IMG/VR virus record: IMGVR_UViG_2698536570_000003 | Span: 1-35,706 of that record | Origin: a virus | Taxonomy: Duplodnaviria; Heunggongvirae; Uroviricota; Caudoviricetes | Length of the DNA stretch: 35,706 bases | Direction: 5' to 3' (one strand) | Shown here: in pieces, positions 5,096-25,400 of the stretch | Layout of the letters: every line of letters starts with the position of its first letter | Position numbering within the stretch: position 1 is the first letter of the stretch | Made by a program: the position numbers and the translations under genes | Notes under the pieces: model-generated | Seen by the model: the letters and a program-made list of their open reading frames with translations, nothing else | What the model was told of the DNA's origin: nothing | The model's database searches: none

Positions 5096-5311
5096 ATGTC
5101 AAATAAAATGACTGGTTTAGTAAAATGGTTTAACGCTGATAAAGGTTTCGGCTTTATTTCTCCTGTTGATGGTAGTAAAGATGTGTTTGTGCATTTTTCT
5201 GCGATTCAGAATGATAATTATCGAACCTTATTTGAAGGTCAAAAGGTTACCTTCTCTATAGAGAGTGGTGCTAAAGGTCCTGCAGCAGCAAATGTCATCA
5301 TTACTGATTAA
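5096..5311 (+). CDS. cspB: cold-shock protein (71 aa)
   Basis: [23 protein letters not shown]...; RNP motifs KGFGFI and VFVHF; long 5' leader. Confidence 0.9.
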
Positions 5312-5583
5312 AATTCATCGCTCGTCTGTATACGATAACGAAGAAGGCTGATGCCTGAGTAGAGATACGGACAGAGTAGTGAATATTGGATCTCTTTAAT
5401 AAAAAGTAAGGAGGTCCAATACATGAAACAATGGCTAGCATATTTGGCAAAATCTTAATCAGGAAAAGTATGCTAACCATTGTGGTGAAGTGCAGGTTTG
5501 CTGCATGAATAGTTTTACAGCAGAAGCTAACTGCTGGCATGGCAAAACAAAGTGCGTAAGTGGATGACTCCCACAAAAAGCAC

Positions 5584-5606
5584 CACAATCTCAAACCCGC
5601 TCAGGC
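5584..5606 (+). terminator. intrinsic terminator-like hairpin
   Basis: AACCCGC-TCAG-GCGGGTT followed by TTTTTTATT. Confidence 0.45.
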
Positions 5607-5674
5607 GGGTTTTTTATTATCTGCTTTAAATATATTATTAAAATATAAAAAATACTTGTTACTAATAAAATCAA

Positions 5675-5896
5675 TCAGGCTACAGCTTTAAGATTTGTCT
5701 GGAATACTTTGTTGCAATGAGGGCAGATCAAAAGGGCACCTTTTTGTACTCTTGAAAAACTGTGTTCTGACTCTTGGGTGCAGTTTGGGCAGGAACATTT
5801 AACGAGATAATTACGGCGTGATTTTGAGTTTTTACGTTCTGACATAGGCTTTTCCTGTATAAATGGCCGTATACAGTACACTAAATATGAAAACAT
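5675..5896 (-). CDS. small zinc-ribbon-like protein (CSCPNC...CPHCNK); start uncertain
   Basis: Two Cys pairs spaced as a zinc ribbon; ORF in track. Confidence 0.35.
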   Translation of the reverse strand: MFSYLVYCIRPFIQEKPMSERKNSKSRRNYLVKCSCPNCTQESEHSFSRVQKGALLICPHCNKVFQTNLKAVA

Positions 5897-6064
5897 TTCT
5901 CGTATTATTATTTTATATATGACTTTCTTTCAAAATAATTACCCACATTTTTAATGTGTATGTTTTTTTAGCGCCGTTGAGAACAACGTGTGCTGTCAAA
6001 ACTACCCCGTAGACTCCGATCTTTTCAAACATATTGCACCATCCGTGTACATCGGGGTGAGGAT

Positions 6065-6280
6065 ATGAAATCAATGGATAAGTTAACAACAGGTGTTGCC
6101 TATGGCACATCGGCGGGTAATGCTGGTTTCTGGGCATTGCAGTTACTCGATAAAGTAACTCCGTCACAGTGGGCTGCAATCGGTGTGCTGGGTAGCCTGG
6201 TTTTTGGCCTGCTGACGTATCTGACAAATCTTTATTTCAAGATTAAAGAAGACAGGCGTAAGGCTGCGAGAGGAGAGTAA
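6065..6280 (+). CDS. essQ: class II holin (phage 21 S-like pinholin, 71 aa)
   Basis: [28 protein letters not shown]... with two TM segments and charged C-terminus; directly before the endolysin. Confidence 0.8.
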
Positions 6281-6284
6281 TCCA

Positions 6285-6592
6285 ATGACTCAAGACTATG
6301 AACTGGTTGTGAAAGGAGTCCGTAATTTTGAGAATAAAGTTACGGTAACTGTAGCCTTACAGGACAAAGAACGCTTTGACGGTGAAATTTTTGACCTGGA
6401 TGTCGCCATGGACCGTGTTGAAGGAGCTGCGCTGGAGTTTTATGAGGCAGCAGCCAGAAGGAGCGTCCGGCAAGTCTTCCTGGAAGTAGCAGAAAAATTG
6501 TCAGAAAAAGTTGAGTCTTATCTGCAGCATCAGTACTCCTTTAAGATTGAAAATCCTGCCAATAAGCACGAGCGTCCTCATCATAAATATCT

Positions 6593-6596
<4 letters not shown>
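6285..6596 (+). CDS. ydfR: YdfR-like protein of unknown function (103 aa)
   Basis: Position between holin and lysozyme as in Qin. Confidence 0.6.
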
Positions 6597-7620
<1,024 letters not shown>

Positions 7621-8697: not shown

Positions 8698-8868
8698 TTT
8701 GATGCTATTGCATTGATAATTCAGGAAAATTCTCTTTGTCTGTTTGTGTAAAATTTAGACTATCGTATGTTGATTATTGCGATGTTTCATCTTATCTTTT
8801 ACACGTTTGCACCATATAATCGACTTACTGTGTAACTGGAAAGTCATAACAGACTAAAAGAGGAAATG

Positions 8869-9042
8869 ATGAATATTGAAAACTTAAAAACAAAAGCAGA
8901 AGCAGATATTTCTGAATATATAACAAAAAAAATTATTGAACTTAAGAAAAAGACCGGGAAAGAAGTTACCAGTATTCAGTTTACCGCACGGGAAAAAATG
9001 ACGGGTCTTGAAAGCTATGATGTCAAGATTAATTTAATCTGA
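8869..9042 (+). CDS. gnsB: GnsB-like small protein (57 aa)
   Basis: ORF below track cutoff found by hand: MNIENLKTKAEADISEYITKKIIELKKKTGKEVTSIQFTAREKMTGLESYDVKINLI; Gns family. Confidence 0.75.
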   Translation: MNIENLKTKAEADISEYITKKIIELKKKTGKEVTSIQFTAREKMTGLESYDVKINLI

Positions 9043-9193
9043 TGTATTCAATAATAAAATTTATCCATAAACCTCGTTTTTACGGGGTTTTGTTATATTT
9101 GAATGGTTCCGAATATCTAAATCACAATTGTTGATGGTTTTTATTAAACCAATGCAGTCCGGCTCAGGAGTGAGAGAAGCCGGACGTTATGGT

Positions 9194-9604
9194 TTAGCGT
9201 GGTAAGATCTGTGTAGTTTTCTGGATGCTTTCAGTAAATAGTAATGATTTATCAAAGGTATAGTAATATCTTTTTTGTTCGTGGATATTTGTAACCCACC
9301 GAAAAACTCCTGCTTTAGCAAGGTTTCTTCTGTATTCCTGAAATGTGATCTCTCTGGATTTCAGCTTATTAGAGGTCGTTTCTATAAGATGCCTATCCTT
9401 TGAAAATTTGACAGACACAATGTTTTTTAGGCCCTTTAATAACACTGTATTATCATTTTTTAATACAATATGAACATTCTCTGTGGCTAAATAGTAAATG
9501 TAATGTGAGACATTGTGACGTTTTAGCTCAGAATAAAACCATTGATAGTTTAAATCGTTTCGAACTTTATCAAATATTTGTTTAAAAATGACTACCTGAT
9601 CCAT
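9194..9604 (-). CDS. ydfO: DUF1398-family protein YdfO-like
   Basis: Sequence and synteny recall; start taken at [11 protein letters not shown]. Confidence 0.65.
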
Positions 9605-16227: not shown

Positions 16228-17160
16228 ATGTCGATGTACACAACCGCCCAGCTGCTGGCGGCAAATGAGCAGAAATTTAAGTTTGATCCGCTGTTTCTGC
16301 GTCTCTTTTTCCGTGAGAGCTATCCCTTCACTACGGAGAAAGTCTATCTCTCACAAATTCCGGGACTGGTAAACATGGCGCTGTACGTTTCGCCGATTGT
16401 TTCCGGTGAGGTTATCCGTTCCCGTGGCGGCTCCACCTCTGAATTTACGCCGGGATATGTCAAACCCAAGCATGAGGTGAATCCGCAGATGACCCTGCGT
16501 CGCCTGCCGGATGAAGATCCACAGAATCTGGCGGACCCGGCTTACCGCCGCCGTCGCATCATCATGCAGAACATGCGAGACGAAGAGCTGGCCATTGCTC
16601 AGGTCGAAGAGATGCAGGCAGTTTCTGCCGTGCTCAAGGGCAAATACACCATGACCGGTGAAGCCTTCGATCCGGTTGAGGTGGATATGGGCCGCAGTGA
16701 AGCGAATAACATCACACAGTCTGGCGTCACGGAGTGGAGCAAGCGTGACAAGTCCACGTATGACCCGACCGACGATATCGAAGCCTACGCGCTGAACGCC
16801 AGCGGCGTGGTGAATATCATCGTGTTTGACCCGAAAGGCTGGGCGCTGTTCCGTTCCTTCAAAGCCGTCAGGGAGAAGCTGGATACCCGTCGCGGCTCTC
16901 ATTCCGAACTGGAGACAGCGGTAAAAGACCTGGGCAAAGCGGTGTCTTATAAGGGAATGTATGGCGATGTGGCCATCGTCGTGTATTCCGGACAGTACGT
17001 GGAAAACGGCGTCAAAAAGAACTTCCTGCCGGACAACACGATGGTGCTGGGTAACACTCATGCACGCGGTCTGCGCACCTATGGCTGTATTCAGGATGCG
17101 GATGCATTGAGTGAGGGTATTAATGCGTCTCCCCGTTATCCGAAAAACTGGAAGACATGA
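16228..17160 (+). pseudogene. E: major capsid protein gpE, N-terminal 312 codons, interrupted; stop codon TGA supplied by the first bases of the insertion
   Basis: MSMYTTAQLLAANEQKFKFDPLF... matches lambda E up to ...PRYPKNWKT, then stop; the missing 29-codon C-terminus is at 24857-24952. Confidence 0.88.
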
Positions 17161-17202
17161 TCCACCGCGCGATAAATAAGCCGCAATCCGTGAGATAAAT
17201 GG
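17158..17202. repeat. left terminal region of insertion (TGATCC..., GATAAATA at 17171, CCGTGAGATAAATGG at 17188)
   Basis: Motifs mirror the right end in reverse complement. Confidence 0.6.
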
Positions 17203-17218
17203 ACACGGTGCGGCTTTT
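17180..17218 (+). terminator. hairpin plus T-run just inside left end of insertion
   Basis: GCCGCAATCCGTG...CACGGTGCGGC followed by TTTT; would stop read-through from E. Confidence 0.4.
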
Positions 17219-17245
17219 CAGATACTGCAAAGGAATTACAAATTA

Positions 17246-19723
17246 TCAGTCGTAAGCAACCCGGCGCTTACGGGCAAGAATAGCTTCCAGCGCTCTTTCA
17301 ATCTCAGGAATGGACAGCTTAAGCGCATTCGCTACATCCGGTGCTGGTGACTTGTTCTTGCCATCAATATAGATATGGTTAATGACGTTAATCCCTGCAC
17401 CTGCCGGTGAATGTGAATCCCGGCCTCTGGATAAGGTAAGGTCGCCGCGCATATAGCGCTCTAATACGGGTGGTACTTTCGGTACATCCGGCACCATCAT
17501 ATCAGCCAGCCGCGAGGAGGCTTTTAGCGCCAGCGATGCAGACTGACCGATACCAATCGCCGCCCCTTCTGCGATGTTTGAACCGAAGCCCATAAAGACC
17601 CGGCTTGGCGAGTGAATCCCCAGCTTTTCCTTGAACCACCCGCCGACGCTATCGCCCATCTCGGTAACGGTATTCTTGAGCGACTCCCACTTATTTTTGA
17701 TACCGTTCACCAGTCCGTCAATCAGGTGACCGCCAAACTCGGTAAACTGGCCGGGAAGGTCGATGTTAAACCACTTCATGACCCCCGCAAACGCCTTGTA
17801 GAACAGCCCCAGCGGCGACCAGTTCAGGATTAGCTTACTGACGCCGAGAACGCCGCCGTTAAAGGCCGTTTTGACTTCCTCCCATCGCTGTGAGAACCAT
17901 CGACTTATTGCCCCCCAGTTGCGGTATATCAGGTATGCGCCCCCGGCGATGACGGTTATCGCAATGCCTAAGGGATTCATCATCAGCGCCCGGCCAAACC
18001 AGAGAAATGCTTTTGCAACGACCATGACGCCCCTGAACAGCCCACCTGCCAGCGCTTTACCCAGCGTCCCGGCTCCCTTCGCTACGGTACTGAATCCAGT
18101 AGCCAGCCAGCGCAACCTGCCACCAACACCAAGTGCGGCTTTCAGCTTCACCCAATGAGTGTGTACCAGAACAGCGTTTTTCCACATCCCAACAAAAGGT
18201 GAAAAAAGCAGATTAAGGCCGAGCTTCAGACCGACAGTGGCAATTTTCAGCCCCAGCAGTGCGCCCACGGTTTTTGCCACACCCTGAACAAGCGTCGGAT
18301 GTTGCTCTATCCAGAGCTTCGTTGTCTGAATCATCGGGATTAATTGCCGGGTTGCTGACACAAATGTAGGGGACAACTGATCGCCGAGAGAGATAGATAA
18401 ATCACGGGTGTTTATCATCAGGGCTTTGGTTGCTTCCAGCGGCGATTTGAGCCTTTCAGCATAGGATGCCGCCAGCAGGTCATTATCAGCCGCTTTAAGT
18501 GCACCAGAGCGGATTGCCCTGTATTTATCCATGTTAGCAAGCATAGGGCGAACGAACGCCATTACCTGCATATCGGTGAACATCTCACCCAGCCCAAAGT
18601 TTTTAGCCAGACTTTGTAAGGCCTCGTCCCGCGCTTTGTTGTCCTGAATTTGCATTGCGGATTTAAAACCAGCCAGAGCTTTCGGACTCGTTGCATTAAG
18701 GTATCTTTGGGTTACATCCAGCATACCTTCAATGGGGGAAACTCCGGCTGCTTTATAATTCGCAAGAGACCCCATCAGGTCGATACCTAAATCGGCAAAT
18801 CGCTTCTGCGTATCAGGCGCAAAAATCTTGGTGAGGAAGTTCCTGAAATTGTTTGCAGTCTCATCCGGTGAACCTGAACCAATCATAGCGACCTGCAAAC
18901 TGGCCCCAATCTCCGCCACTGCATCCTTACCGTCTGCAATACCCTGCATCATCGGCGCAAGCGACTGAATCCATTTCACCTGGTCAGGGATTTCAAAAGA
19001 CCCCTGGTCACCTGCGTAGGCCATGATGTTCTGTACCGCGCCAAATTCTTTTGCGCTGCCTTTCAGCGAGTTTTGCCACACCGCCGCAACCTTTGCCCAT
19101 TCCGTTCCTGCGGTACGGGTTGCCGTGGCTGCACGGGCGATATTCGGCATGTAGTTGCCAATATCTGAAAGCCCGTCAATGTTATCGCTGATAAGTGAAC
19201 CAACGGCGTCCTGCATATCGCTCTGATACTGGTTGTATTTGAGCGACCACCCTTTGATTTGCTCTCCCAGAGTCTTACGGGTTTTATCGTCATATTTCGC
19301 TGTGATTGACATATCAATCATTTTATCTTCAAACGATGCCGACTGTTCTATAGCCGGGGACACAAGACTGTAAGCAGCCCTGACTTGTGCATACGCCTCT
19401 ACTCCCTGACCGTAGAGCGCCATGCGGTTAGATTTCAGGGCGTCAGAAGTGGCAGACGCTGCCGACAGGCGGGACTGCTGGCGGTTAAGCTGTTCCAGCG
19501 TTCTGCCGACCCGTTGCAGGTCATTGTTCAGGCGCGAGGCTACGCCCGAACCAACCTGACCGTAACGCTGCATGGCGCGTGACAGGCTGCTTTGCTGCTC
19601 CGTCAGTCGGCGTGAGGTGTCGCCGAGAGAATCCAGAGTACGCCGGGTACTGCTCATCGCGGAACGAAAACTGCTCCCGACAATGCCGCCAATCATCACG
19701 CCAACAGAAAAATTATTGCTCAT
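17246..19723 (-). CDS. tape-measure-like protein (825 aa)
   Basis: Long helical N-terminal part, Gly/Trp/Phe-rich hydrophobic middle, C-terminal GIHSPSRVF-type motif; no search run. Confidence 0.55.
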   Translation of the reverse strand: MSNNFSVGVMIGGIVGSSFRSAMSSTRRTLDSLGDTSRRLTEQQSSLSRAMQRYGQVGSGVASRLNNDLQRVGRTLEQLNRQQSRLSAASATSDALKSNRMALYGQGVEAYAQVRAAYSLVSPAIEQSASFEDKMIDMSITAKYDDKTRKTLGEQIKGWSLKYNQYQSDMQDAVGSLISDNIDGLSDIGNYMPNIARAATATRTAGTEWAKVAAVWQNSLKGSAKEFGAVQNIMAYAGDQGSFEIPDQVKWIQSLAPMMQGIADGKDAVAEIGASLQVAMIGSGSPDETANNFRNFLTKIFAPDTQKRFADLGIDLMGSLANYKAAGVSPIEGMLDVTQRYLNATSPKALAGFKSAMQIQDNKARDEALQSLAKNFGLGEMFTDMQVMAFVRPMLANMDKYRAIRSGALKAADNDLLAASYAERLKSPLEATKALMINTRDLSISLGDQLSPTFVSATRQLIPMIQTTKLWIEQHPTLVQGVAKTVGALLGLKIATVGLKLGLNLLFSPFVGMWKNAVLVHTHWVKLKAALGVGGRLRWLATGFSTVAKGAGTLGKALAGGLFRGVMVVAKAFLWFGRALMMNPLGIAITVIAGGAYLIYRNWGAISRWFSQRWEEVKTAFNGGVLGVSKLILNWSPLGLFYKAFAGVMKWFNIDLPGQFTEFGGHLIDGLVNGIKNKWESLKNTVTEMGDSVGGWFKEKLGIHSPSRVFMGFGSNIAEGAAIGIGQSASLALKASSRLADMMVPDVPKVPPVLERYMRGDLTLSRGRDSHSPAGAGINVINHIYIDGKNKSPAPDVANALKLSIPEIERALEAILARKRRVAYD

Positions 19724-19755
19724 GGTTCACTCCGGTAATGAGTGGTTCGGTGGCG

Positions 19756-20349
19756 TCATTCGGTCAGGGACAGGCCGCTGATTCCGGTAATCCCGGCAAT
19801 TTCCTCGCTGACAGCCATCAGTTCACTTTCAAGCCCGGTACGTTCGCTGACCAGCGCCGCAACGGTCTTACGGCGTTCTGCCAGTGACGGAAGTTTGTCA
19901 TTGCCCCACACCACGCTTTTATCCTTCTTAAGCGCTTCGGTCAGGCGGGTGGCGACCACATCCGGGAAGAAAAAGCAGAGCTTGCGCATAACCGCCATCC
20001 CGGTATCAGCCGGGGAGATGTTTCCACCCAACCCCACCAGACGGAACAGGCCGGAAATATCGCCGCTCTCATTCTCCAGATTGCCCCAGCGTTCGGCGTT
20101 CCCTTCACTGCCGGAACTGTTGCAGAGGACACGCTTGAATGACTGATATTCTTCCTGCCCGAATCGCTCAATATATTCAGGAATGAAAGAACAGTAATCA
20201 TTAAGCGATAAAGGCATATCCTGTAATGTGGTTATTTCGCCGTTAATTTCACTAATGCGGCGAGAGAGTTTTTCTTTCTGCTCATTCAGGGAGGCAAGAT
20301 TATTTTTAACGGCGTTCAGTGCTTCGATAAGGGAAATAACTGGTTTCAT
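19756..20349 (-). CDS. hypothetical protein with N-terminal coiled coil (197 aa); chaperone or scaffold candidate
   Basis: ORF in track, directly upstream of the tape-measure-like gene. Confidence 0.4.
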   Translation of the reverse strand: MKPVISLIEALNAVKNNLASLNEQKEKLSRRISEINGEITTLQDMPLSLNDYCSFIPEYIERFGQEEYQSFKRVLCNSSGSEGNAERWGNLENESGDISGLFRLVGLGGNISPADTGMAVMRKLCFFFPDVVATRLTEALKKDKSVVWGNDKLPSLAERRKTVAALVSERTGLESELMAVSEEIAGITGISGLSLTE

Positions 20350-20350
20350 T

Positions 20351-20965
20351 TTAATAACTCCAGATAAAAGGCGTGGTGAGTGTGAGTGCTTCGGAATAGG
20401 AGACGTTACAGGCTTCGCTTACATCCTTTATTAAAAGGTGCTGCGCTGCTCTCTGGCTGTCAGCTATGCCGTCGAACTCTGAGAAATAAACGTGTGATTC
20501 ATTGTGACCAAAACAGACCGGGTAAGCGCTTTCCATAAATTCCACCTGCTCCAGCCCTTTAACGGCTGGCGGCTGTGAGCCGAGAAAACCGATATGGCGT
20601 AGATACCAAGCTCCGGTGCCTGCCGGGTTGCTGGCCTCGCCGGGCTTATAGAATGACGCAGATACTTTCCTGTAACGCCCTGAGCGCACCAGCCCCAGCA
20701 GGGTATCATCCGGTTTTACCAGTGCGAAAAGCCTGCCGTTCTTGCTTATCAGTCCGGTGGTTTCGCCATAGGCCGGGCTGTTACTGGCCGGATGCCCCAG
20801 ACACAGCGGCGCACCGTAACCCGCGCTGCGATAGCCGTTATAGGCCGCTGCCATGTTGTCGATATCCTCGTCGGAAAAGCTGATTTCCTGTCCCGCCATC
20901 GCGGTATGCGTTCCCGCCCGGAATATCTCAATCGTTTTCCAGTTGCCCAAATTAAGATTTGTCAT
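20351..20965 (-). CDS. hypothetical protein (204 aa), tentatively Mu gpI-like protease-domain
   Basis: Motifs RSGRYRKVSASFY and LRHIGFLGSQPPAVKGL resemble my recollection of Mu-I family proteins; recall is uncertain. Confidence 0.35.
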   Translation of the reverse strand: MTNLNLGNWKTIEIFRAGTHTAMAGQEISFSDEDIDNMAAAYNGYRSAGYGAPLCLGHPASNSPAYGETTGLISKNGRLFALVKPDDTLLGLVRSGRYRKVSASFYKPGEASNPAGTGAWYLRHIGFLGSQPPAVKGLEQVEFMESAYPVCFGHNESHVYFSEFDGIADSQRAAQHLLIKDVSEACNVSYSEALTLTTPFIWSY

Positions 20966-21007
20966 TTACCTGTTCTCGGTTGTGATGTGTAAACAGTGCT
21001 TTGCTGC

Positions 21008-21382
21008 TTAGTGTCTGGCAGCGCTATCTTTCAGGCTGTTTCTGTATTCACGGCGTTTTTGGGCGATAATGTTGTAAATCCATTGCAGGGAATAGCCGTA
21101 TTTTTTCGCTATTTCAGCGATGGGAATACCTTCATTAAAGTCTGCAAAAACCAGATCATATTTCTCTTCATTCTGGTCTTTTGTTCCTTTTGGGAAGTAA
21201 AGGTTAAGCCCGCCGTATACATCTGACAGATACGCCATGATGTCTACAGCGATAGATTCAGACTGACGTTTATCGACACCGTACATGACAAGGCGGCAGG
21301 AAATGTGCGTAGCCATATCACTAAGCACTTCGGCAGATTGACGCATTTTTTGTTTGTTGGTCATGACTATCACCCGTTGCAA
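21008..21382 (-). CDS. Mor-family transcriptional activator-like protein (124 aa)
   Basis: C-terminal half (YGGLNLYFPKG...FADFNEGIPIAEIAKKYGYSLQWIYNIIAQKRR) aligns by eye with Mu Mor HTH region. Confidence 0.55.
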   Translation of the reverse strand: MQRVIVMTNKQKMRQSAEVLSDMATHISCRLVMYGVDKRQSESIAVDIMAYLSDVYGGLNLYFPKGTKDQNEEKYDLVFADFNEGIPIAEIAKKYGYSLQWIYNIIAQKRREYRNSLKDSAARH

Positions 21383-21603
21383 TATCAGTAATTCAGTCAG
21401 AAAAGGCTTTATAAAGCTTTACAGCGTGCGACTGGCGGTAAAGGCGAACCTTGACCGCAGCAAACCAGCCTGACGGCTTAGAAAGCGTTACAGCACCTTG
21501 TTAAAGTCAGTTAATAATATCGGGTGTGGGCGGGGATGTTTTTTAATGTACTTTAGATATGAAGAAGCCCCTCAGAGGAGGGGCTTCGCGGGATTACGCC
21601 AGA

Positions 21604-21894
21604 TTATTGAGGCCGTCTGTCTTTCCTCAATCCATCAAGTAGCGCCATTGCATCAGTAACCAGTATGCCAGCAGCATCCGTAACCATAGAAACATCAGAG
21701 GATGCACATGATTTATCCGTACCTAATGTAGACGCAAAATCAAGTAGCTTACGAACTGCATCAAGTCGGTAGGTGGCAGAGTCGTAAATTAACTCCTGAT
21801 TAGCATCAGTCTTTAAAAACATAATATCATCAGAGGCACCTTGTGAAAATGACGGCATCGCACGGAAAGTATTTTGAGTTTCAGCCTGTTTCAT
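21604..21894 (-). CDS. hypothetical protein (96 aa)
   Basis: ORF in operon context, overlaps neighbour by 4 nt. Confidence 0.35.
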   Translation of the reverse strand: MKQAETQNTFRAMPSFSQGASDDIMFLKTDANQELIYDSATYRLDAVRKLLDFASTLGTDKSCASSDVSMVTDAAGILVTDAMALLDGLRKDRRPQ

Positions 21895-22652
21895 TGTGCA
21901 GCCCTCCGGCTAATAGCGAATTTATTATAAACTTCATAACTGGCAGCATTCAGTCCGGGGTTGTATTTATCAGCCAGAGCACAGGCAATCATATGTTCAA
22001 TAAATTTTGTTATTGCGTTAAGTTCGGTTTCGTCTGAATAACGCAATGCCACTTTGAGTAACTCGCGGCAATATTGCTTTTTATTCTCTTCGATTTGGCC
22101 TGATTGTTTTATTCCTGCCTTTTTATCTAACTCGTCCTCAACAGGCAAAGATGAGATATCCTCTTTATTGGTTAGCGTTCTTTCGCAAATAATATCTTCA
22201 CCAGATTGAATTACGCGCTGCAACTCTCTGGCGCTCATGCGAAGAATATCATCAAGCGTGTGGTCGTTATATGCCCCACCACTGGCAAGGAGATCCAGTG
22301 TCACTTCATCCAGCCGGGCAAGCAGATTTAACTTCGTTTTGCCGATATCTGTTTTGGCAATTGCGGCTCGTGGTGTGTCACCGCCGAACACATGAGCGAT
22401 TCGCATCGCTTTACGTGCATCGGGCAAGTTTATGCGCCATCTGTGAAGAAAGTTCGTAAACTCACCATGTTGCAGTTCCTCTTTACAGGCAAATATTTTC
22501 TTTCCCAAAGAAACCAAGCCTTCGGCCTCCGATGTCGTTTTAGCGTGAGAACTGTGAATCACGCCACTGACCACCGCAGATAAAACACTTTCTTGGTTTG
22601 TTCCAAATGAATCGTTAGACTTATCATTAGCCATGACTGTTATCCTACGCAT
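21891..22652 (-). CDS. hypothetical protein (253 aa, start uncertain), first gene of leftward operon
   Basis: ORF in track; translationally coupled to the 96-aa ORF. Confidence 0.4.
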   Translation of the reverse strand: MRRITVMANDKSNDSFGTNQESVLSAVVSGVIHSSHAKTTSEAEGLVSLGKKIFACKEELQHGEFTNFLHRWRINLPDARKAMRIAHVFGGDTPRAAIAKTDIGKTKLNLLARLDEVTLDLLASGGAYNDHTLDDILRMSARELQRVIQSGEDIICERTLTNKEDISSLPVEDELDKKAGIKQSGQIEENKKQYCRELLKVALRYSDETELNAITKFIEHMIACALADKYNPGLNAASYEVYNKFAISRRAAQ

Positions 22653-22772
22653 AACGGTTTACTGGTTAGGCCATAGCAAGTGCTCGCAACATTTGTTATG
22701 GCCGTTTCTCTAGACCTTTCCCTGTGTTAAGGTATAGACCTAATAAGCAAACACTAAGCTATAGGTCTATAC

Positions 22773-22964
22773 ATGTCAACTATCTTGCGAGATAAAAGCC
22801 CTAAAGGGGCAGGTAAAGCCCCGATGTTCAATGTCAGGATTTCACCAGAACTGAAAGAACAGTTTGAATCACAAGCAAAAAAAGAAGGTGTTAGCTTAGG
22901 GAATTGGCTCAAAGAGCTTGGGAGAGCAGAGCTTAAGCGCAACGGAATTGACCCGAAGGCTTAA
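22773..22964 (+). CDS. Arc/Mnt-like ribbon-helix-helix DNA-binding protein (63 aa)
   Basis: PMFNVRISPELKEQFESQAKKEGVSLGNWLKE fits the RHH pattern of P22 Arc; divergent from the leftward operon. Confidence 0.5.
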   Translation: MSTILRDKSPKGAGKAPMFNVRISPELKEQFESQAKKEGVSLGNWLKELGRAELKRNGIDPKA

Positions 22965-23000
22965 ATTTAGTTACTAAAAAACAATAGCTTAAGGTATTTT

Positions 23001-23086
23001 TGATAAATATTTATCACTTGTATTCGACATCATAGTGATAAATATTTATCATTCACAGCGCATCGGCACATGATAAAATGTTATCA
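23001..23086. promoter_or_regulatory. three 16-bp palindromic operator-like sites, 35 bp centre to centre
   Basis: TGATAAATATTTATCA at 23001-23016 and 23036-23051 (identical, perfect palindromes); TGATAAAATGTTATCA at 23071-23086. Confidence 0.6.
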
Positions 23087-23101
23087 CTTTGAGGCTAGTT
23101 T

Positions 23102-23446
23102 ATGCGTATACATGTTACTCTTAATGGCAAAAAAACAACCATATCGATAGATGACTTGCTCTTCGACTATCTTGGTGCATGGTTGGTTGAACAAAGACCC
23201 AAACTGCACTCAAAACCTAAAGAGCAGTATGACCAAGCTAAGTCTCAGATTCGTAAATATGTGCAAGATAACGCAGAAAAACTCCCATCTAAGAACCTTA
23301 GCCAGCACATACAAAATGCCATTTTAGAAATAATTATGCCGAAAGAATTAAATGAAATTCTAGAGAAAAGAGGGCCAAGATATGAGAAGAAAAAGTTTGA
23401 TGTGACCACAATTTTCCCTGATTGGGAAAATTATCTGAGAAAGTAA
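23102..23446 (+). CDS. hypothetical protein (114 aa), possible DNA-binding/regulatory
   Basis: ORF in track with GAGG RBS, directly after the operator array. Confidence 0.45.
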   Translation: MRIHVTLNGKKTTISIDDLLFDYLGAWLVEQRPKLHSKPKEQYDQAKSQIRKYVQDNAEKLPSKNLSQHIQNAILEIIMPKELNEILEKRGPRYEKKKFDVTTIFPDWENYLRK

Positions 23447-23465
23447 TTAAATCAATGGATTGTAT

Positions 23466-23607
23466 ACCGCTCAGCGCTGAGCGGTTCTGTGGCTCTAGAT
23501 CTGCCAACGTTGGCAGATTTGCCAATACCGCATTTGATTGATGGTATCGAATCGCAAATGTCCCAGCGCTGGGAATCATCCCCAAAGGCGCAGACATCTG
23601 CGCCTTT
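23466..23607. repeat. cluster of four distinct palindromes/hairpins
   Basis: ACCGCTCAGCGCTGAGCGGT (23466-23485), ATCTGCCAACGTTGGCAGAT (23499-23518), TCCCAGCGCTGGGA (23561-23574), AAAGGCGCAGA-CA-TCTGCGCCTTT (23584-23607). Confidence 0.6.
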
Positions 23608-23734
23608 GAGAAGCACGGAACTAAAATCCGTTTCACTGTATGACTGTATGGTATGAGGCTTTCAGATGCTTACTGAGGCTTAAATAAGCTAATGAAGTTT
23701 GCATCATCTGTTCCAAGTTAGTACACTTATCCCT

Positions 23735-23766
23735 GTTAGTGGATGCGTGACGCGCTCTGGTTGAGG
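23735..23766. repeat. left arm of 32-bp perfect inverted repeat
   Basis: GTTAGTGGATGCGTGACGCGCTCTGGTTGAGG; exact reverse complement at 23925-23956. Confidence 0.8.
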
Positions 23767-23820
23767 CTCATTACCTTGAACAGAGATTCATCACCTTAAG
23801 CACCCAAAGAAAAAAGCCTG

Positions 23821-23870
23821 NNNNNNNNNNNNNNNNNNNNNNNNNNNNNNNNNNNNNNNNNNNNNNNNNN
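23821..23870. other. run of 50 N (assembly gap or masked sequence of unknown true length)
   Basis: Seen directly. Confidence 0.99.
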
Positions 23871-23924
23871 GCATGTGAAACGTGTTCAAGCCCTGGCTGG
23901 ATTACGGGTGGTGCCGCTCCAGTG

Positions 23925-23956
23925 CCTCAACCAGAGCGCGTCACGCATCCACTAAC
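23925..23956. repeat. right arm of 32-bp perfect inverted repeat
   Basis: CCTCAACCAGAGCGCGTCACGCATCCACTAAC. Confidence 0.8.
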
Positions 23957-24028
23957 AATGCAACACCGTTAACCAGGCAGTGGAAGGGCTTTAATGGTGA
24001 TGCCGCGCTCCTGTAGTGGAGCAAACGG

Positions 24029-24112
24029 ATGAAGGGATTTCTTCAAATCGCTGTCATCGCTCTTAAGGCAATTGTCGCCTTTATTGAGCTGATTCTGGCC
24101 TGCTTACCGTAA
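24029..24112 (+). CDS. candidate 27-aa hydrophobic peptide (MKGFLQIAVIALKAIVAFIELILACLP), type I toxin-like
   Basis: ATG with GGAG 8 nt upstream; single predicted TM helix; followed 20 nt later by a strong terminator. Confidence 0.3.
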   Translation: MKGFLQIAVIALKAIVAFIELILACLP

Positions 24113-24133
24113 GCAACCGGGAAACGTAAGTAA

Positions 24134-24166
24134 GGCCACCGGCTCACCCCCGGTGGCCTTTAACAT
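24134..24166 (+). terminator. intrinsic terminator
   Basis: GGCCACCGG-CTCACCC-CCGGTGGCC followed by TTTAACATTTT. Confidence 0.55.
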
Positions 24167-24365
24167 TTTAAGTCTGCCTCGCCGCTCTACCGGCCATTCA
24201 TTTTTGAAGCTGGCTGAGTGTTAAGGCTAAATTTAAGGTGGCACTGACGGCTTAAATTCCTGCGATATCCTGGCATGTCGTTATGATTAAAGCGCATTAG
24301 AAACAAATTTCATCGTTCTGATTAAACATGTTTACCTGACTATTCAAAGTAAGGTAAATCTCAAT

Positions 24366-24710
24366 ATGGCACGACCTCAGACGGTTAATCAGTTACCCGA
24401 CTCTATCAAGAAGAAACTGAATAAAAAGCTGACGGAAAGTTCATTCAGCGGCTACGTTCAGCTTACTGAGTGGTTAAACTCGTTGGGATACCCGGTTTCA
24501 AAATCATCAGTGCATCGCTATGCTGAACGTCGCCGCCTGTCACTTATAGCAGGGAGCGATACTCCCGGCGCAACAGCTAACATTGTGGATACGAAACTTC
24601 GCTGTCTGGAGCTTGCCTCGCTCTCTTTAAAAACGGACGAGAAGTTGTCAGCAGATGAAGTAAAAAAATATGCTGAAAATTTGATGGGGTGGCTTTACGA
24701 CCAGAAATAA
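24366..24710 (+). CDS. HTH-containing small protein (114 aa) near right end of insertion; regulator or terminase-small-subunit-like
   Basis: Segment YVQLTEWLNSLGYPVSKSSVHRYAERRR looks like a helix-turn-helix; ORF in track. Confidence 0.45.
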   Translation: MARPQTVNQLPDSIKKKLNKKLTESSFSGYVQLTEWLNSLGYPVSKSSVHRYAERRRLSLIAGSDTPGATANIVDTKLRCLELASLSLKTDEKLSADEVKKYAENLMGWLYDQK

Positions 24711-24809
24711 TTGACTGCGCGGGAGGCGTGCCCTCCCGTTACGTATATGGAAACTGTTTTACAAATTCCCATCCAACCTTTTCCAACATCTTCCCCCATA
24801 GTCCCACAA

Positions 24810-24850
24810 TTATCTCACGGATAACCCTGTATTTATCTCATGTCTAATCA
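24810..24850. repeat. right terminal region of insertion (reverse complement carries CCGTGAGATAA at +30 and CATGAGATAAATA at +8)
   Basis: Mirrors the left end. Confidence 0.6.
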
Positions 24851-24856
24851 AAGACA

Positions 24857-24952
24857 TCCGGCGATCCGGCGCGAGAGTTCACCATGATTCAGTCAGCACC
24901 GCTGATGCTGCTGGCTGATCCTGATGAGTTCGTGTCCGTTCAACTGGCGTAA
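24857..24952 (+). pseudogene. E: detached C-terminal 31 codons of major capsid gene E (SGDPAREFTMIQSAPLMLLADPDEFVSVQLA)
   Basis: Matches the lambda E C-terminus; in frame with the N-terminal fragment if 17158-24856 is removed. Confidence 0.85.
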
Positions 24953-24993
24953 TCATGGCCCTTCGGGGCCATTTTCTCTCTGTGGAGGAATCC

Positions 24994-25389
24994 ATGACGA
25001 AAGATGAACTGATTGCCCGTCTCCGGTCGCTGGGTGAGCAACTGAACCGTGATGTCAGCCTGACGGGGACGAAAGAAGAACTGGCGCTCCGTGTGGCAGA
25101 GCTGGAAGAGGAGCTTGATGACACGGATGACGCAGCCGGTCTGGACACGTCTGTCAGCCCGGAAAATGCGCTGACCGGACATGAAAATGAGGTGGTATCA
25201 GCGCAGACGGATACCGTGACTGATACGGCTGCTCTGGTCACGGTTGTGGCACTGGTGACGCTGCATACTGATGCACTTCACGCCACGCGGGATGAGGCTG
25301 TGGCATTTGTGCTGCCGGGAACGGCGTTCCGTGTCTCTGCCGGTGTGGCAGCTGAAATGACAGCGCGCGGCCTGGCCAGAATGCAATAA
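24994..25389 (+). CDS. FI: DNA-packaging accessory protein gpFI
   Basis: MTKDELIARLRSLGEQLNRDVSLTGTKEELALRVAEL... matches lambda FI; GGAGG RBS. Confidence 0.88.
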   Translation: MTKDELIARLRSLGEQLNRDVSLTGTKEELALRVAELEEELDDTDDAAGLDTSVSPENALTGHENEVVSAQTDTVTDTAALVTVVALVTLHTDALHATRDEAVAFVLPGTAFRVSAGVAAEMTARGLARMQ

Positions 25390-25400
25390 CGGGAGGCGCT

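What the first reader, a model, noticed from the sequence alone, without database searches (positions are those of the whole stretch)
23733..23956. 32-bp perfect inverted repeat flanking the N gap
GTTAGTGGATGCGTGACGCGCTCTGGTTGAGG (23735-23766) is the exact reverse complement of 23925-23956. Weaker inverted matches continue inward (CTTGAACA at about 23775 against TGTTCAAG at about 23884), so the gap sits at the apex of a long hairpin-capable region. This could be a real long hairpin (structured ncRNA such as an msr/msd-like unit, a recombination site, or an invertible segment boundary), with hidden sequence in the gap. It could equally be a foldback or scaffolding artefact. The true gap length is unknown, so missing genes such as a transposase may lie here.
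Basis: seen in the sequence. Interest (0 to 1): 0.6.

Follow-up and report, generated by a model that had tools for sequence, protein, structure and literature searches.

The report
Antisense RNA pair of a toxin–antitoxin module
The 34-base inverted repeat is real. It is most likely the footprint of a small antitoxin RNA gene sitting just upstream of the toxin mRNA it pairs with, in a DinQ/AgrB-type type I toxin–antitoxin module; the N gap hides only 111 bases and no genes.

Summary
There are perfect 34-nt arms at 23734-23767 and 23924-23957; 30 shuffles of the window give at most 14 nt. The window is E. coli AW1.7. That strain's complete genome closes the 50-N gap with 111 nt holding the 3' half of an intrinsic terminator, a TTGAAT-16-TATAAT promoter and a partial third copy of the repeat. 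No gene is hidden.

The left arm is the 5' end of a predicted ~110-nt sRNA. The right arm lies at about +88 to +121 in the 5' UTR of an mRNA for a 27-aa hydrophobic peptide (24029-24112).

A profile of this mRNA matches K-12 dinQ (E=1.6e-16) and plasmid dqlB (E=4.6e-12). In those loci the AgrB antitoxin RNA pairs with the same UTR position. There the sRNA gene is divergent, giving a direct repeat; here it is in tandem, giving the inverted repeat.

Across 15 distinct homologues:
- 99.6% of arm cells pair.
- All 10 one-sided changes are G-U wobbles on the + strand.
- 2 pairs show compensatory changes.
- The peptide shows about ten synonymous changes and only two conservative replacements.
- No locus has the inner segment inverted.

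Verdict: a new variant of a known kind, of modest interest. Expression, toxicity and rescue are untested.

The parts
23699..23727 (+). Predicted promoter of the antitoxin sRNA: TTGCAT (23699-23704), 17-nt spacer, TACACT (23722-23727). The left arm begins 7 nt downstream.
   Evidence: The hexamers are conserved in 14 of the 15 aligned homologues while the spacer and discriminator vary. L031 differs upstream of the arm, with TTGCCA-17-TAAACT at the same columns. The layout matches the agrB-like sRNA promoter on pJJ1886_4 (TTGCAT-17-TAAGAT). It is below the threshold of the simple promoter scan. The transcription start site (TSS) was not mapped.
23735..23820 (+). Visible part of the predicted AgrB-like antitoxin sRNA (~110 nt in all). 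Its 3' end, the second half of the terminator hairpin plus the U-run, lies under the N gap.
   Evidence: The terminator AAAAAAGCCTGACCTCACCAGTCGGGCTTTTTTT is seen in the closed sequence. The nhmmer profile matches the 3' half of plasmid agrB-like sRNAs at E=2e-10 and 1.6e-8. Rfam AgrB and OrzO-P matches cover exactly this span but are below threshold.
23735..23767 (+). Left arm: the 5'-terminal 33 nt of the sRNA, the antisense 'seed'. Base 23734 also pairs in this strain but varies T/C/A elsewhere.
23821..23870 (.). Run of 50 N standing for 111 real nt. These are the 3' half of the sRNA terminator, the toxin promoter TTGAAT-16-TATAAT, the predicted TSS, and a partial third copy of the repeat (GCGTTAGTGGGTGTCCCGTTCTGAC) at the mRNA 5' end.
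   Evidence: conservation.
23871..24169 (+). Visible part of the dinQ-like toxin mRNA: 5' UTR, ORF and terminator.
   Evidence: The nhmmer profile of this region hits K-12 dinQ at E=1.6e-16 and pJJ1886_4 dqlB at E=4.6e-12, over UTR, SD hairpin, CDS and 3' UTR.
23924..23956 (+). Right arm: the sRNA target in the 5' UTR, about +88 to +121 from the predicted TSS. In cis it also pairs with the mRNA 5' end (a lock stem).
   Evidence: In dinQ, AgrB binds G88-A119 (PMC5066626).
24005..24022 (+). Hairpin GCGCUCC-uguagu-GGAGC that sequesters the Shine-Dalgarno sequence GGAG (24018-24021).
   Evidence: Seen in the RNAalifold consensus, with two G-U-type one-sided changes and none that break it. The SD is paired in every predicted fold.
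24029..24112 (+). 27-aa hydrophobic toxin ORF MKGFLQIAVIALKAIVAFIELILACLP.
   Evidence: The peptide is nearly invariant in 26 loci. About ten synonymous variants occur against two conservative replacements, I15L and V16I. BLASTP against DinQ gives 8/15 identical, E=3e-4.
24132..24169 (+). Stem-loop/terminator of the toxin mRNA, inside the conserved 3' UTR frame GGAAACGTAASTAAGG...CCTTTAACA shared with dinQ and dqlB.
17158..24850 (.). Carrier: a ~7.75-kb element (real length) with no transposase gene, TG...CA ends and a 6-bp target duplication AAGACA (17152-17157 and 24851-24856). It is inserted in the lambdoid major capsid gene.

Best explanation
The inverted repeat is the DNA footprint of a trans-acting antisense pair in a DinQ/AgrB-type (dql) type I toxin–antitoxin module.

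A ~110-nt sRNA is transcribed rightwards from a promoter at 23699-27. It starts at about 23735 and ends at an intrinsic terminator that lies partly in the gap. Its first 33 nt are the left arm. Directly downstream, a second promoter inside the gap drives an mRNA for a 27-aa membrane-toxin-like peptide. The right arm sits at about +88 to +121 of that mRNA's 5' UTR, roughly 70 nt upstream of the start codon.

Inferred mechanism, by homology with dinQ/agrB and pOXA-48 dqlB/agrB:
- The primary mRNA is locked by its own 5' end, which is a degenerate copy of the sRNA seed and pairs with the right arm. The Shine-Dalgarno sequence is held in a hairpin.
- Once the mRNA is activated, the sRNA pairs with the right arm. 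This keeps the SD closed and makes a 33-bp duplex that RNase III can cut.
- The toxin is therefore made only when the short-lived sRNA is lost.

Because the sRNA gene lies in tandem with the toxin gene rather than divergently, the complementarity shows up in DNA as an inverted repeat instead of a direct repeat.

Shown here: the anatomy, the homology, the pairing conservation and the coding constraint. Inferred: transcription starts, toxicity, antitoxin activity and RNase III involvement.
For: 1. Gap closure shows a terminator followed by a promoter between the arms. Both promoters keep their hexamers while the spacers vary: the toxin promoter in all 15 homologues, the sRNA promoter in 14 of 15.

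2. There are 33 pairs with 99.6% of cells paired. 21 pairs are invariant. 10 vary on one side only, and all 10 are G-U wobbles for + strand RNA; none is the A.C type that would be equally likely for DNA or for minus-strand RNA (about 2^-10). 2 pairs have compensatory double changes, UA<->AU and AU->GC.

3. The 27-aa ORF is under purifying selection.

4. The mRNA profile hits the dinQ locus at E=1.6e-16 and dqlB at E=4.6e-12. The sRNA profile hits plasmid agrB-like sRNAs at E=2e-10.

5. Positions match dinQ. Target: +88-121 here against G88-A119. SD: +182-185 here against G184-G187 (PMC5066626).

6. RNAalifold predicts the 5' lock stem and the SD hairpin.

7. In K-12 and pJJ1886_4 the same complementarity is a direct repeat because the sRNA gene is divergent (PMC3567139).

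8. DqlB/agrB with a 35-nt pairing is experimentally validated on pOXA-48 (PMC12365149).

9. The module keeps its boundaries in different carriers.
Against: - There are no expression or toxicity data for this locus.
- The peptide does not reach the curated HMM cut-offs. NCBIfam toxin_DinQ scores 13.1 bits against 30, and only for one variant. Pfam gives nothing, and there is no BLASTP alignment with DqlB.
- The Rfam AgrB (19.2 against 40 bits) and OrzO-P (24.5 against 60 bits) matches are below threshold and largely terminator-driven.
- The sRNA promoter is weak by consensus, 7 of 12 (one search did not list it).
- MFE folding of 5'-truncated mRNAs never opens the SD hairpin, so the dinQ-like activation step is not reproduced in silico.
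- The 15 homologues are closely related (mean column identity 89%). Covariation therefore rests on few events, and 2 cells at the hot-spot pair are unpaired.
Confidence: 0.85

Rival explanations
1. Cis hairpin. The sRNA terminator is leaky, and a read-through transcript carries both arms. It folds into a 33-34-bp stem that silences the toxin mRNA in cis or is cut by RNase III. This could act alongside the trans model.
For: The tandem layout makes read-through possible. The duplex is very stable (duplexfold -102 kcal/mol). The + strand G-U pattern fits cis pairing as well as trans pairing.
Against: A strong conserved terminator (14-bp stem, U-run) and a conserved promoter with a perfect -10 lie between the arms. 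In the homologous dinQ and dqlB systems the sRNA acts in trans from a separate gene.
Confidence: 0.08
2. Invertible promoter/terminator switch (inverton). A recombinase flips the 217-bp segment between the arms, turning toxin or gp27 transcription on and off. Mixed orientations would have broken the draft assembly.
For: A promoter and a terminator flanked by a long perfect inverted repeat resemble an inverton. Several short-read assemblies break between or at the arms (window gap; L017, L021, L030).
Against: All 24 loci with both arms, 15 of them distinct sequences, have the same orientation. No invertase or tyrosine recombinase is encoded in the element. The arms diverge by G-U-type changes on one strand only, which DNA recombination does not predict. 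The arms differ by up to 5 positions in L020 and the module is still conserved.
Confidence: 0.03
3. Protein-binding sites: three copies of a site for a DNA-binding protein of the element, for example the Gp27-like small-terminase N-domain (a pac site) or a transposition enhancer.
For: Three copies lie about 0.9-1.1 kb from the element's right end, just upstream of the gp27-like gene.
Against: The module occurs without an adjacent gp27 (L020, L033). Relatives of the gp27-like gene lack it (L005-L012). The strand-specific wobble pattern, the conserved ORF and the homology to dinQ would all be left unexplained.
Confidence: 0.02
4. Assembly or scaffolding artefact, or terminal inverted repeats of a MITE/IS whose body lies in the gap.
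For: The N gap sits between the arms, and the arms start TG...CA.
Against: The sequence is identical in two complete AW1.7 genomes, with only 111 nt in the gap. There is no target duplication at the arm edges. There is a single copy per genome, always in this module, in only 9 of 5426 complete E. coli genomes.
Confidence: 0.01

Closest known systems
dinQ/agrB (with agrA) of E. coli K-12 (PMC3567139, PMC5066626)
   Same: - 27-aa single-helix peptide sharing the core A(L/I)(I/V)A(L/F)(L/I)ELI.
- mRNA homologous over UTR, SD hairpin, CDS and 3' UTR (E=1.6e-16).
- sRNA 5' end (UUAG...) complementary to about 31-33 nt of the 5' UTR at about +88-120.
- A 5'-proximal element pairs with that site in the primary transcript.
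- GGAG is held in a hairpin.
   Different: - The sRNA gene is in tandem rather than divergent, so the complementarity is an inverted repeat rather than a direct one.
- No LexA box at the toxin promoter.
- Different seed sequence and a different sRNA terminator.
- The peptide is below the NCBIfam DinQ cut-off.
- Carried on a mobile phage-like element.
dqlB/agrB of conjugative plasmids (pOXA-48, PMC12365149; pJJ1886_4, L039)
   Same: - Same family of mRNA (E=4.6e-12).
- The sRNA promoter layout, the 3' half and the terminator loop CCUCACCAG are homologous (E=2e-10).
- About 35-nt pairing, proven by compensatory mutations on pOXA-48.
- Carried by a mobile element, where it acts as an addiction module.
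   Different: - Divergent gene order on the plasmid examined here (pJJ1886_4, L039).
- No detectable peptide alignment by BLASTP.
- Unrelated seed sequence.
zorO/orzO, tisB/istR-1 and shoB/ohsC (PMC4147584, PMC5397157)
   Same: A non-overlapping sRNA encoded 5' of the toxin gene targets a long 5' UTR well upstream of the ribosome binding site. The primary transcript is translationally inert. OrzO-P shares the terminator loop sequence.
   Different: All are divergently transcribed. There is no significant sequence match here: Rfam gives 24.5 bits against 60.
Invertons (fimS, the Hin/Gin family)
   Same: A promoter-containing segment flanked by inverted repeats. The phage Mu G segment also has 34-bp inverted repeats (from my own knowledge).
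   Different: No recombinase, no orientation polymorphism, and no resemblance to the hix/gix core as I recall it; that resemblance was not tested with a tool.

Membership tests
DinQ-like (dql) type I toxin genes, as defined in PMC5066626 | Nucleotide similarity of the mRNA, especially the 5' UTR, to dinQ | tested here: met
   An nhmmer profile of 15 homologues hits the K-12 dinQ locus at 55 bits, E=1.6e-16, over profile positions 60-375. It hits pJJ1886_4 dqlB at E=4.6e-12 (the database was only 114 kb).
DinQ-like (dql) type I toxin genes | Small hydrophobic single-helix peptide with DinQ signature residues | tested here: inconclusive
   27 aa. BLASTP against DinQ gives 8/15 identical, E=3e-4 for the pair. 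NCBIfam toxin_DinQ gives 13.1 bits against a cut-off of 30, and only for the I15L variant. There is no Pfam hit and no alignment to DqlB. I could not see the dqlA sequences from the paper.
DinQ-like (dql) type I toxin genes | Four-element 5' UTR: element 1 pairs with element 2, and elements 3 and 4 form the SD hairpin | tested here: met
   The RNAalifold consensus pairs the mRNA 5' end with the right arm and puts GGAG in a hairpin. GAGCGCG in the arm is complementary to CGCGCUC in the 5' half of the SD hairpin, read directly from the sequence.
DinQ-like (dql) type I toxin genes | 5' processing switches the mRNA to an open-SD, translatable form | tested here: inconclusive
   MFE and partition-function folds of transcripts truncated by 20-60 nt keep the SD paired. 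This needs an experiment.
AgrB-type antitoxin sRNA | About 30 nt at the sRNA 5' end complementary to the toxin 5' UTR, followed by a Rho-independent terminator | tested here: met
   33 nt, 99.6% paired across homologues, with wobble-only and compensatory variation. Terminator.
AgrB-type antitoxin sRNA | Match to Rfam RF02891 (AgrB) at the gathering score | tested here: not met
   19.2 bits against 40. OrzO-P gives 24.5 against 60. However, the nhmmer match to plasmid agrB-like sRNAs is significant.
DinQ/AgrB locus organisation (PMC4147584, T1TAdb PMC8594479) | sRNA gene 5' of the toxin gene, not overlapping it, and divergently transcribed | tested here: not met
   It is 5' and non-overlapping, but on the same strand. 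This difference is what makes the repeat inverted.
DinQ proper | LexA (SOS) operator at the promoter | tested here: not met
   No CTGT-N8-ACAG match, even allowing 1 mismatch, near the toxin promoter.
Type I toxin–antitoxin system (general) | The peptide is toxic when expressed, and the sRNA neutralises it by base pairing | not testable with these tools
   Requires expression and rescue assays.
Inverton / site-specific invertible switch | Both orientations are found, and a recombinase is associated | tested here: not met
   24 of 24 loci have one orientation. No recombinase domain is found in the element's proteins.
Retron msr/msd | Adjacent reverse transcriptase, and an msr/msd RNA model match | tested here: not met
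   No RT in the window element. No Rfam match. The RT in L015 belongs to a group II intron inserted downstream.

The most novel reading that the evidence does not exclude
This tandem agrB-like/dinQ-like module may be more than an addiction cassette. Carried on a Mu/BcepMu-type element that has no transposase gene and resembles a phage satellite, it could act as a helper-phage sensor or abortive-infection device. Toxin release would follow when transcription of the short-lived sRNA is shut off during helper or foreign phage takeover. The tandem layout could add a second, cis mode of silencing through terminator read-through, giving a built-in timer. The carrier would then be an undescribed kind of transposable phage satellite carrying its own defence or stabilisation module.
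Probability: 0.12. Interest if true: 0.65.

Novelty: new variant of a known kind. Interest (0 to 1): 0.3.

Why it matters
For the finding itself, a puzzling long hairpin around an assembly gap turns out to be an ordinary regulatory device. It need not be chased as a retron, an inverton or a hidden transposase.

Three wider points follow.
- DinQ/AgrB-type modules can have the sRNA gene in tandem with the toxin gene. Pipelines that require the divergent orientation, such as the T1TAdb procedure, would miss them. NCBI's annotation pipeline (PGAP) leaves this region unannotated.
- A perfect inverted repeat of about 33 nt, with a terminator and promoter between the arms and a tiny hydrophobic ORF downstream, is a usable search signature for such modules.
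- The repeat, together with the partial third copy, may recurrently break short-read assemblies at this spot. That link is inference only.

The carrier element is probably the more interesting object and deserves its own study.

Tried and rejected
- Pfam and NCBIfam scans of the 27-aa peptide gave nothing at or above cut-off.
- Rfam at E<=10 gave only sub-threshold matches (Thr_leader, OrzO-P, AgrB), mostly driven by the terminator.
- The phage collection has no match to the module.
- A full-text search for the peptide string found no paper. Searches for Mu-like phage satellites found nothing relevant (one search failed on term length).
- MITE/IS reading rejected: no target duplication, one copy per genome, and 9 of 5426 genomes.
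- Retron rejected: no RT.
- Inverton rejected: one orientation in 24 loci.
- The 44-aa GTG ORF spanning the right arm (23882-24016) was considered as a mok/tisA-like leader. In L020 it changes by about 7 replacements against 2 synonymous differences (read), so it is not protein-constrained.
- The inner 8-mer CTTGAACA/TGTTCAAG was considered as an extension of the duplex. It is deleted in L024 and is within chance.
- In-silico 5' truncation did not open the SD hairpin.

Full report
**1. Observation**

The region reads as described. The repeat finder gives arms 23734-23767 and 23924-23957, 34 nt and 100% complementary. The N run is 23821-23870, 50 N. The longest inverted repeat in 30 shuffles of the whole window is 10-14 nt. 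The analytic expectation for a 34-mer within 400 nt is about 5e-14. The repeat is far beyond chance.

**2. Closing the gap**

The window is E. coli AW1.7. NZ_CP073624.1 and NZ_CP072539.1 match window 22300-25400 at 100%, and the whole window matches at every non-N base. The complete genome has 111 nt where the window has 50 N:

ACCTCACCAGTCGGGCTTTTTTTGTCCGTTATTTACTCCAGTCCTTTGAATACACTGCTGATGCCTTTATAATCACAGCGTTAGTGGGTGTCCCGTTCTGACACAACGCAG

This stretch holds three things:
- the 3' half of a hairpin terminator, AAAAAAGCCTGAC-ctcacca-GTCGGGCTTTTTTT;
- a promoter, TTGAAT-16-TATAAT, pointing right;
- just after that promoter, a partial third copy of the repeat.

No ORF, transposase or other gene is hidden. 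The 217 nt between the arms are not otherwise self-complementary, apart from the chance-level 8-mer noted above.

**3. Anatomy**

Upstream of the left arm lies TTGCAT-17-TACACT, followed by 7 nt and then GTTAGTGG. Downstream of the right arm there is a hairpin that buries GGAG (24018-24021). An ATG follows 7 nt later at 24029. The ORF is 27 codons, MKGFLQIAVIALKAIVAFIELILACLP (24029-24112), and is followed by a stem-loop at 24132-24160.

The layout is therefore: promoter, sRNA (left arm at its 5' end), terminator, promoter, long 5' UTR (third copy at its 5' end, right arm at about +88-121), sequestered SD, tiny hydrophobic ORF, terminator.

**4. Relatives**

Only 9 of 5426 complete E. coli genomes carry the region, each once. 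Degenerate-pattern scans for the ORF in genome, metagenome and viral contigs gave loci L018-L036. These include Erwinia tracheiphila, Ca. Erwinia dacicola and Intestinirhabdus alba. Yokenella (L013) came from the gp27-like protein look-up, and a Citrobacter IncF plasmid also carries the region. Fifteen distinct full-length sequences were aligned as A1.

Findings from this set:
- The peptide is nearly invariant, with only I15L and V16I. The DNA carries about ten synonymous variants.
- The toxin promoter keeps its hexamers in all 15 sequences and the sRNA promoter in 14 of 15, while the spacers vary.
- The 33 arm pairs are 99.6% paired. 21 never vary. 10 vary on one side only, always as G-U for + strand RNA. 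2 carry compensatory double changes, U-A<->A-U in 6-7 sequences and A-U->G-C in L031. Only two cells are unpaired, both at the hot-spot pair.

A one-sided transition is equally likely to give G.U or A.C, and a transversion gives neither. Ten out of ten G.U outcomes therefore have a probability of 0.001 or less without RNA-level selection on + strand transcripts. Slid controls pair at only 28-43%.

The first arm base, 23734, varies T/C/A and probably lies outside the duplex or before the transcription start site (TSS).

**5. Identity**

Rfam gave only sub-threshold matches, but two of them, OrzO-P and AgrB, are type I antitoxins and cover exactly the predicted sRNA. BLASTN against plasmids found the sRNA's 3' part next to genes annotated 'DinQ-like type I toxin DqlB'.

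On pJJ1886_4 (L039) the sRNA homologue has the same promoter layout and the same terminator loop. It is transcribed divergently from dqlB, and the complementarity is a direct repeat.

nhmmer profiles built from A1 gave these hits:
- toxin mRNA against the K-12 dinQ locus: 55 bits, E=1.6e-16, spanning UTR, SD hairpin, CDS and 3' UTR;
- toxin mRNA against pJJ1886_4 dqlB: E=4.6e-12;
- sRNA against plasmid agrB-like sRNAs: E=2e-10 and 1.6e-8.

The peptide aligns with DinQ at 8/15 identities, E=3e-4.

Positions coincide with the published dinQ model. AgrB binds G88-A119, and the SD is G184-G187 (PMC5066626). Here the target is +88-121 and the SD is +182-185. RNAalifold predicts that the mRNA 5' end pairs in cis with the right arm, equivalent to the dinQ 1:2 lock stem, and that the SD is in a hairpin.

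DqlB/agrB on pOXA-48 is a validated addiction module with a 35-nt pairing proven by compensatory mutations (PMC12365149). Reviews describe dinQ-agrB, tisB-istR-1, zor-orz and shoB-ohsC as divergent pairs (PMC4147584; PMC8594479).

**6. Why the repeat is inverted**

A trans-acting sRNA is complementary to its target wherever its gene lies. If the gene is on the opposite strand, as in dinQ and dqlB, the + strand shows a direct repeat. If it is on the same strand, as here, it shows an inverted repeat. The finding is that footprint.

**7. Mechanism**

This is inferred from the homologues. The primary mRNA is inert because of the 5' lock and the closed SD. An activated form would be translated. The sRNA's 33-nt seed binds the UTR site, keeps the SD closed and creates an RNase III substrate. 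Loss of the unstable sRNA releases the toxin.

In-silico truncation did not reproduce SD opening, so that step is unverified. No LexA box is present, so this module is not SOS-controlled in the way dinQ is.

**8. Rivals**

- Inverton: all 24 loci with both arms share one orientation, and no recombinase is present.
- Retron: no RT.
- MITE or artefact: refuted by gap closure and copy number.
- Protein-binding sites: this leaves the strand-specific wobble pattern and the dinQ homology unexplained.
- Cis hairpin by terminator read-through: cannot be excluded as an additional mode.

**9. The gap**

Other short-read assemblies also break at or between the arms: L017 starts in the right arm, L021 near the toxin promoter and L030 near the TSS. 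The three repeat copies may cause these assembly breaks, but I could not test this without reads.

**10. Context**

The module sits in a ~7.75-kb element (17158-24850) with TG...CA ends and a 6-bp target duplication. The element interrupts the major capsid gene of a lambdoid prophage flanked by Qin-region genes (relBE, hokD, ydfU, cspB). See 'noticed in passing'.

**Verdict**

The interpretation as a hairpin, recombination site or artefact is largely wrong, but the RNA-level idea is right. This is a new tandem-oriented, divergent member of the DinQ/AgrB type I toxin–antitoxin kind, of modest interest.

Noticed in passing
window 17158-24850: A ~7.75-kb mobile element with TG...CA ends, repeated GAGATAAAT-like motifs at both ends and a 6-bp target duplication (AAGACA here, ACTCAT in CX21). 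It encodes no transposase. It does encode an 825-aa tape-measure protein, a 204-aa protein matching the N-terminal part of a head maturation protease family (phrog_976), Mor, a DUF3102 protein, an Arc/HicB-like repressor and a 114-aa Gp27 (small-terminase N-domain) protein. It sits at different sites in different hosts: the lambdoid capsid gene, a PTS gene, dacD-sbmC, an IncF plasmid, and the Yokenella chromosome. It looks like a phage satellite of a transposable phage, mobilised in trans. I found no description of such elements in the literature searches.
   Followed up: partly
L005-L008 (Proteus mirabilis), L011; window 24711-24850: The last ~140 bp of the window element are nearly identical to the right end of elements in Proteus that span at least ~9.5 kb; their left ends lie beyond the fetched loci. 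Those elements carry only a Mu-type early region (cI-like repressor, DUF3102, DDE transposase, AAA+ B-like protein, Gam, GemA, Mor) plus the same 114-aa Gp27-like gene. No structural genes lie within the ~9.5 kb fetched. They sit at different chromosomal sites in different strains. About 130 E. coli genomes have ~78%-similar ends; the one examined belongs to a full BcepMu-like prophage, a possible helper.
   Followed up: partly
window 23001-23086: Three copies of the 16-bp palindrome TGATAAATATTTATCA (the third is 81% identical), spaced 35 bp apart. They lie between the Arc/HicB-like gene (22773-22964) and the 114-aa ORF (23102-23446), overlapping promoter-like sites. They look like operators for the ribbon-helix-helix repressor.
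   Followed up: no
L015/L016/L026, about 5237-7082: In one metagenomic lineage a group II intron (RVT_1 + GIIM ORF on the minus strand) is inserted between the toxin stop codon and its terminator. On the minus strand this is about 10 nt downstream of the stem-loop, the kind of site that terminator-targeting bacterial group II introns use, as far as I recall.
   Followed up: partly
window 23583-23608: A perfect 12-bp-stem palindrome, CAAAGGCGCAGA-ca-TCTGCGCCTTTG, lies downstream of the 114-aa ORF. It matches the terminator part of Rfam STnc40 on both strands, below threshold. Related hairpins with different stems recur in the variable region upstream of the module in L002 and L004.
   Followed up: no
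L037 (IncX4 plasmid pVA564-33) 641-756: The gene annotated dqlB appears to be a remnant. An agrB-like sRNA terminator in inverse orientation abuts the 3' two-thirds of the toxin CDS, and the usual dql 5' UTR and SD hairpin are missing.
   Followed up: no
L033 (IMG/VR UViG) 8737-9316: The same toxin–antitoxin module lies next to myovirus baseplate, tail-fibre and spike genes rather than next to a gp27-like gene. In L019 an extra small ORF separates it from gp27. The module therefore behaves as a movable cassette among phage-related elements.
   Followed up: partly
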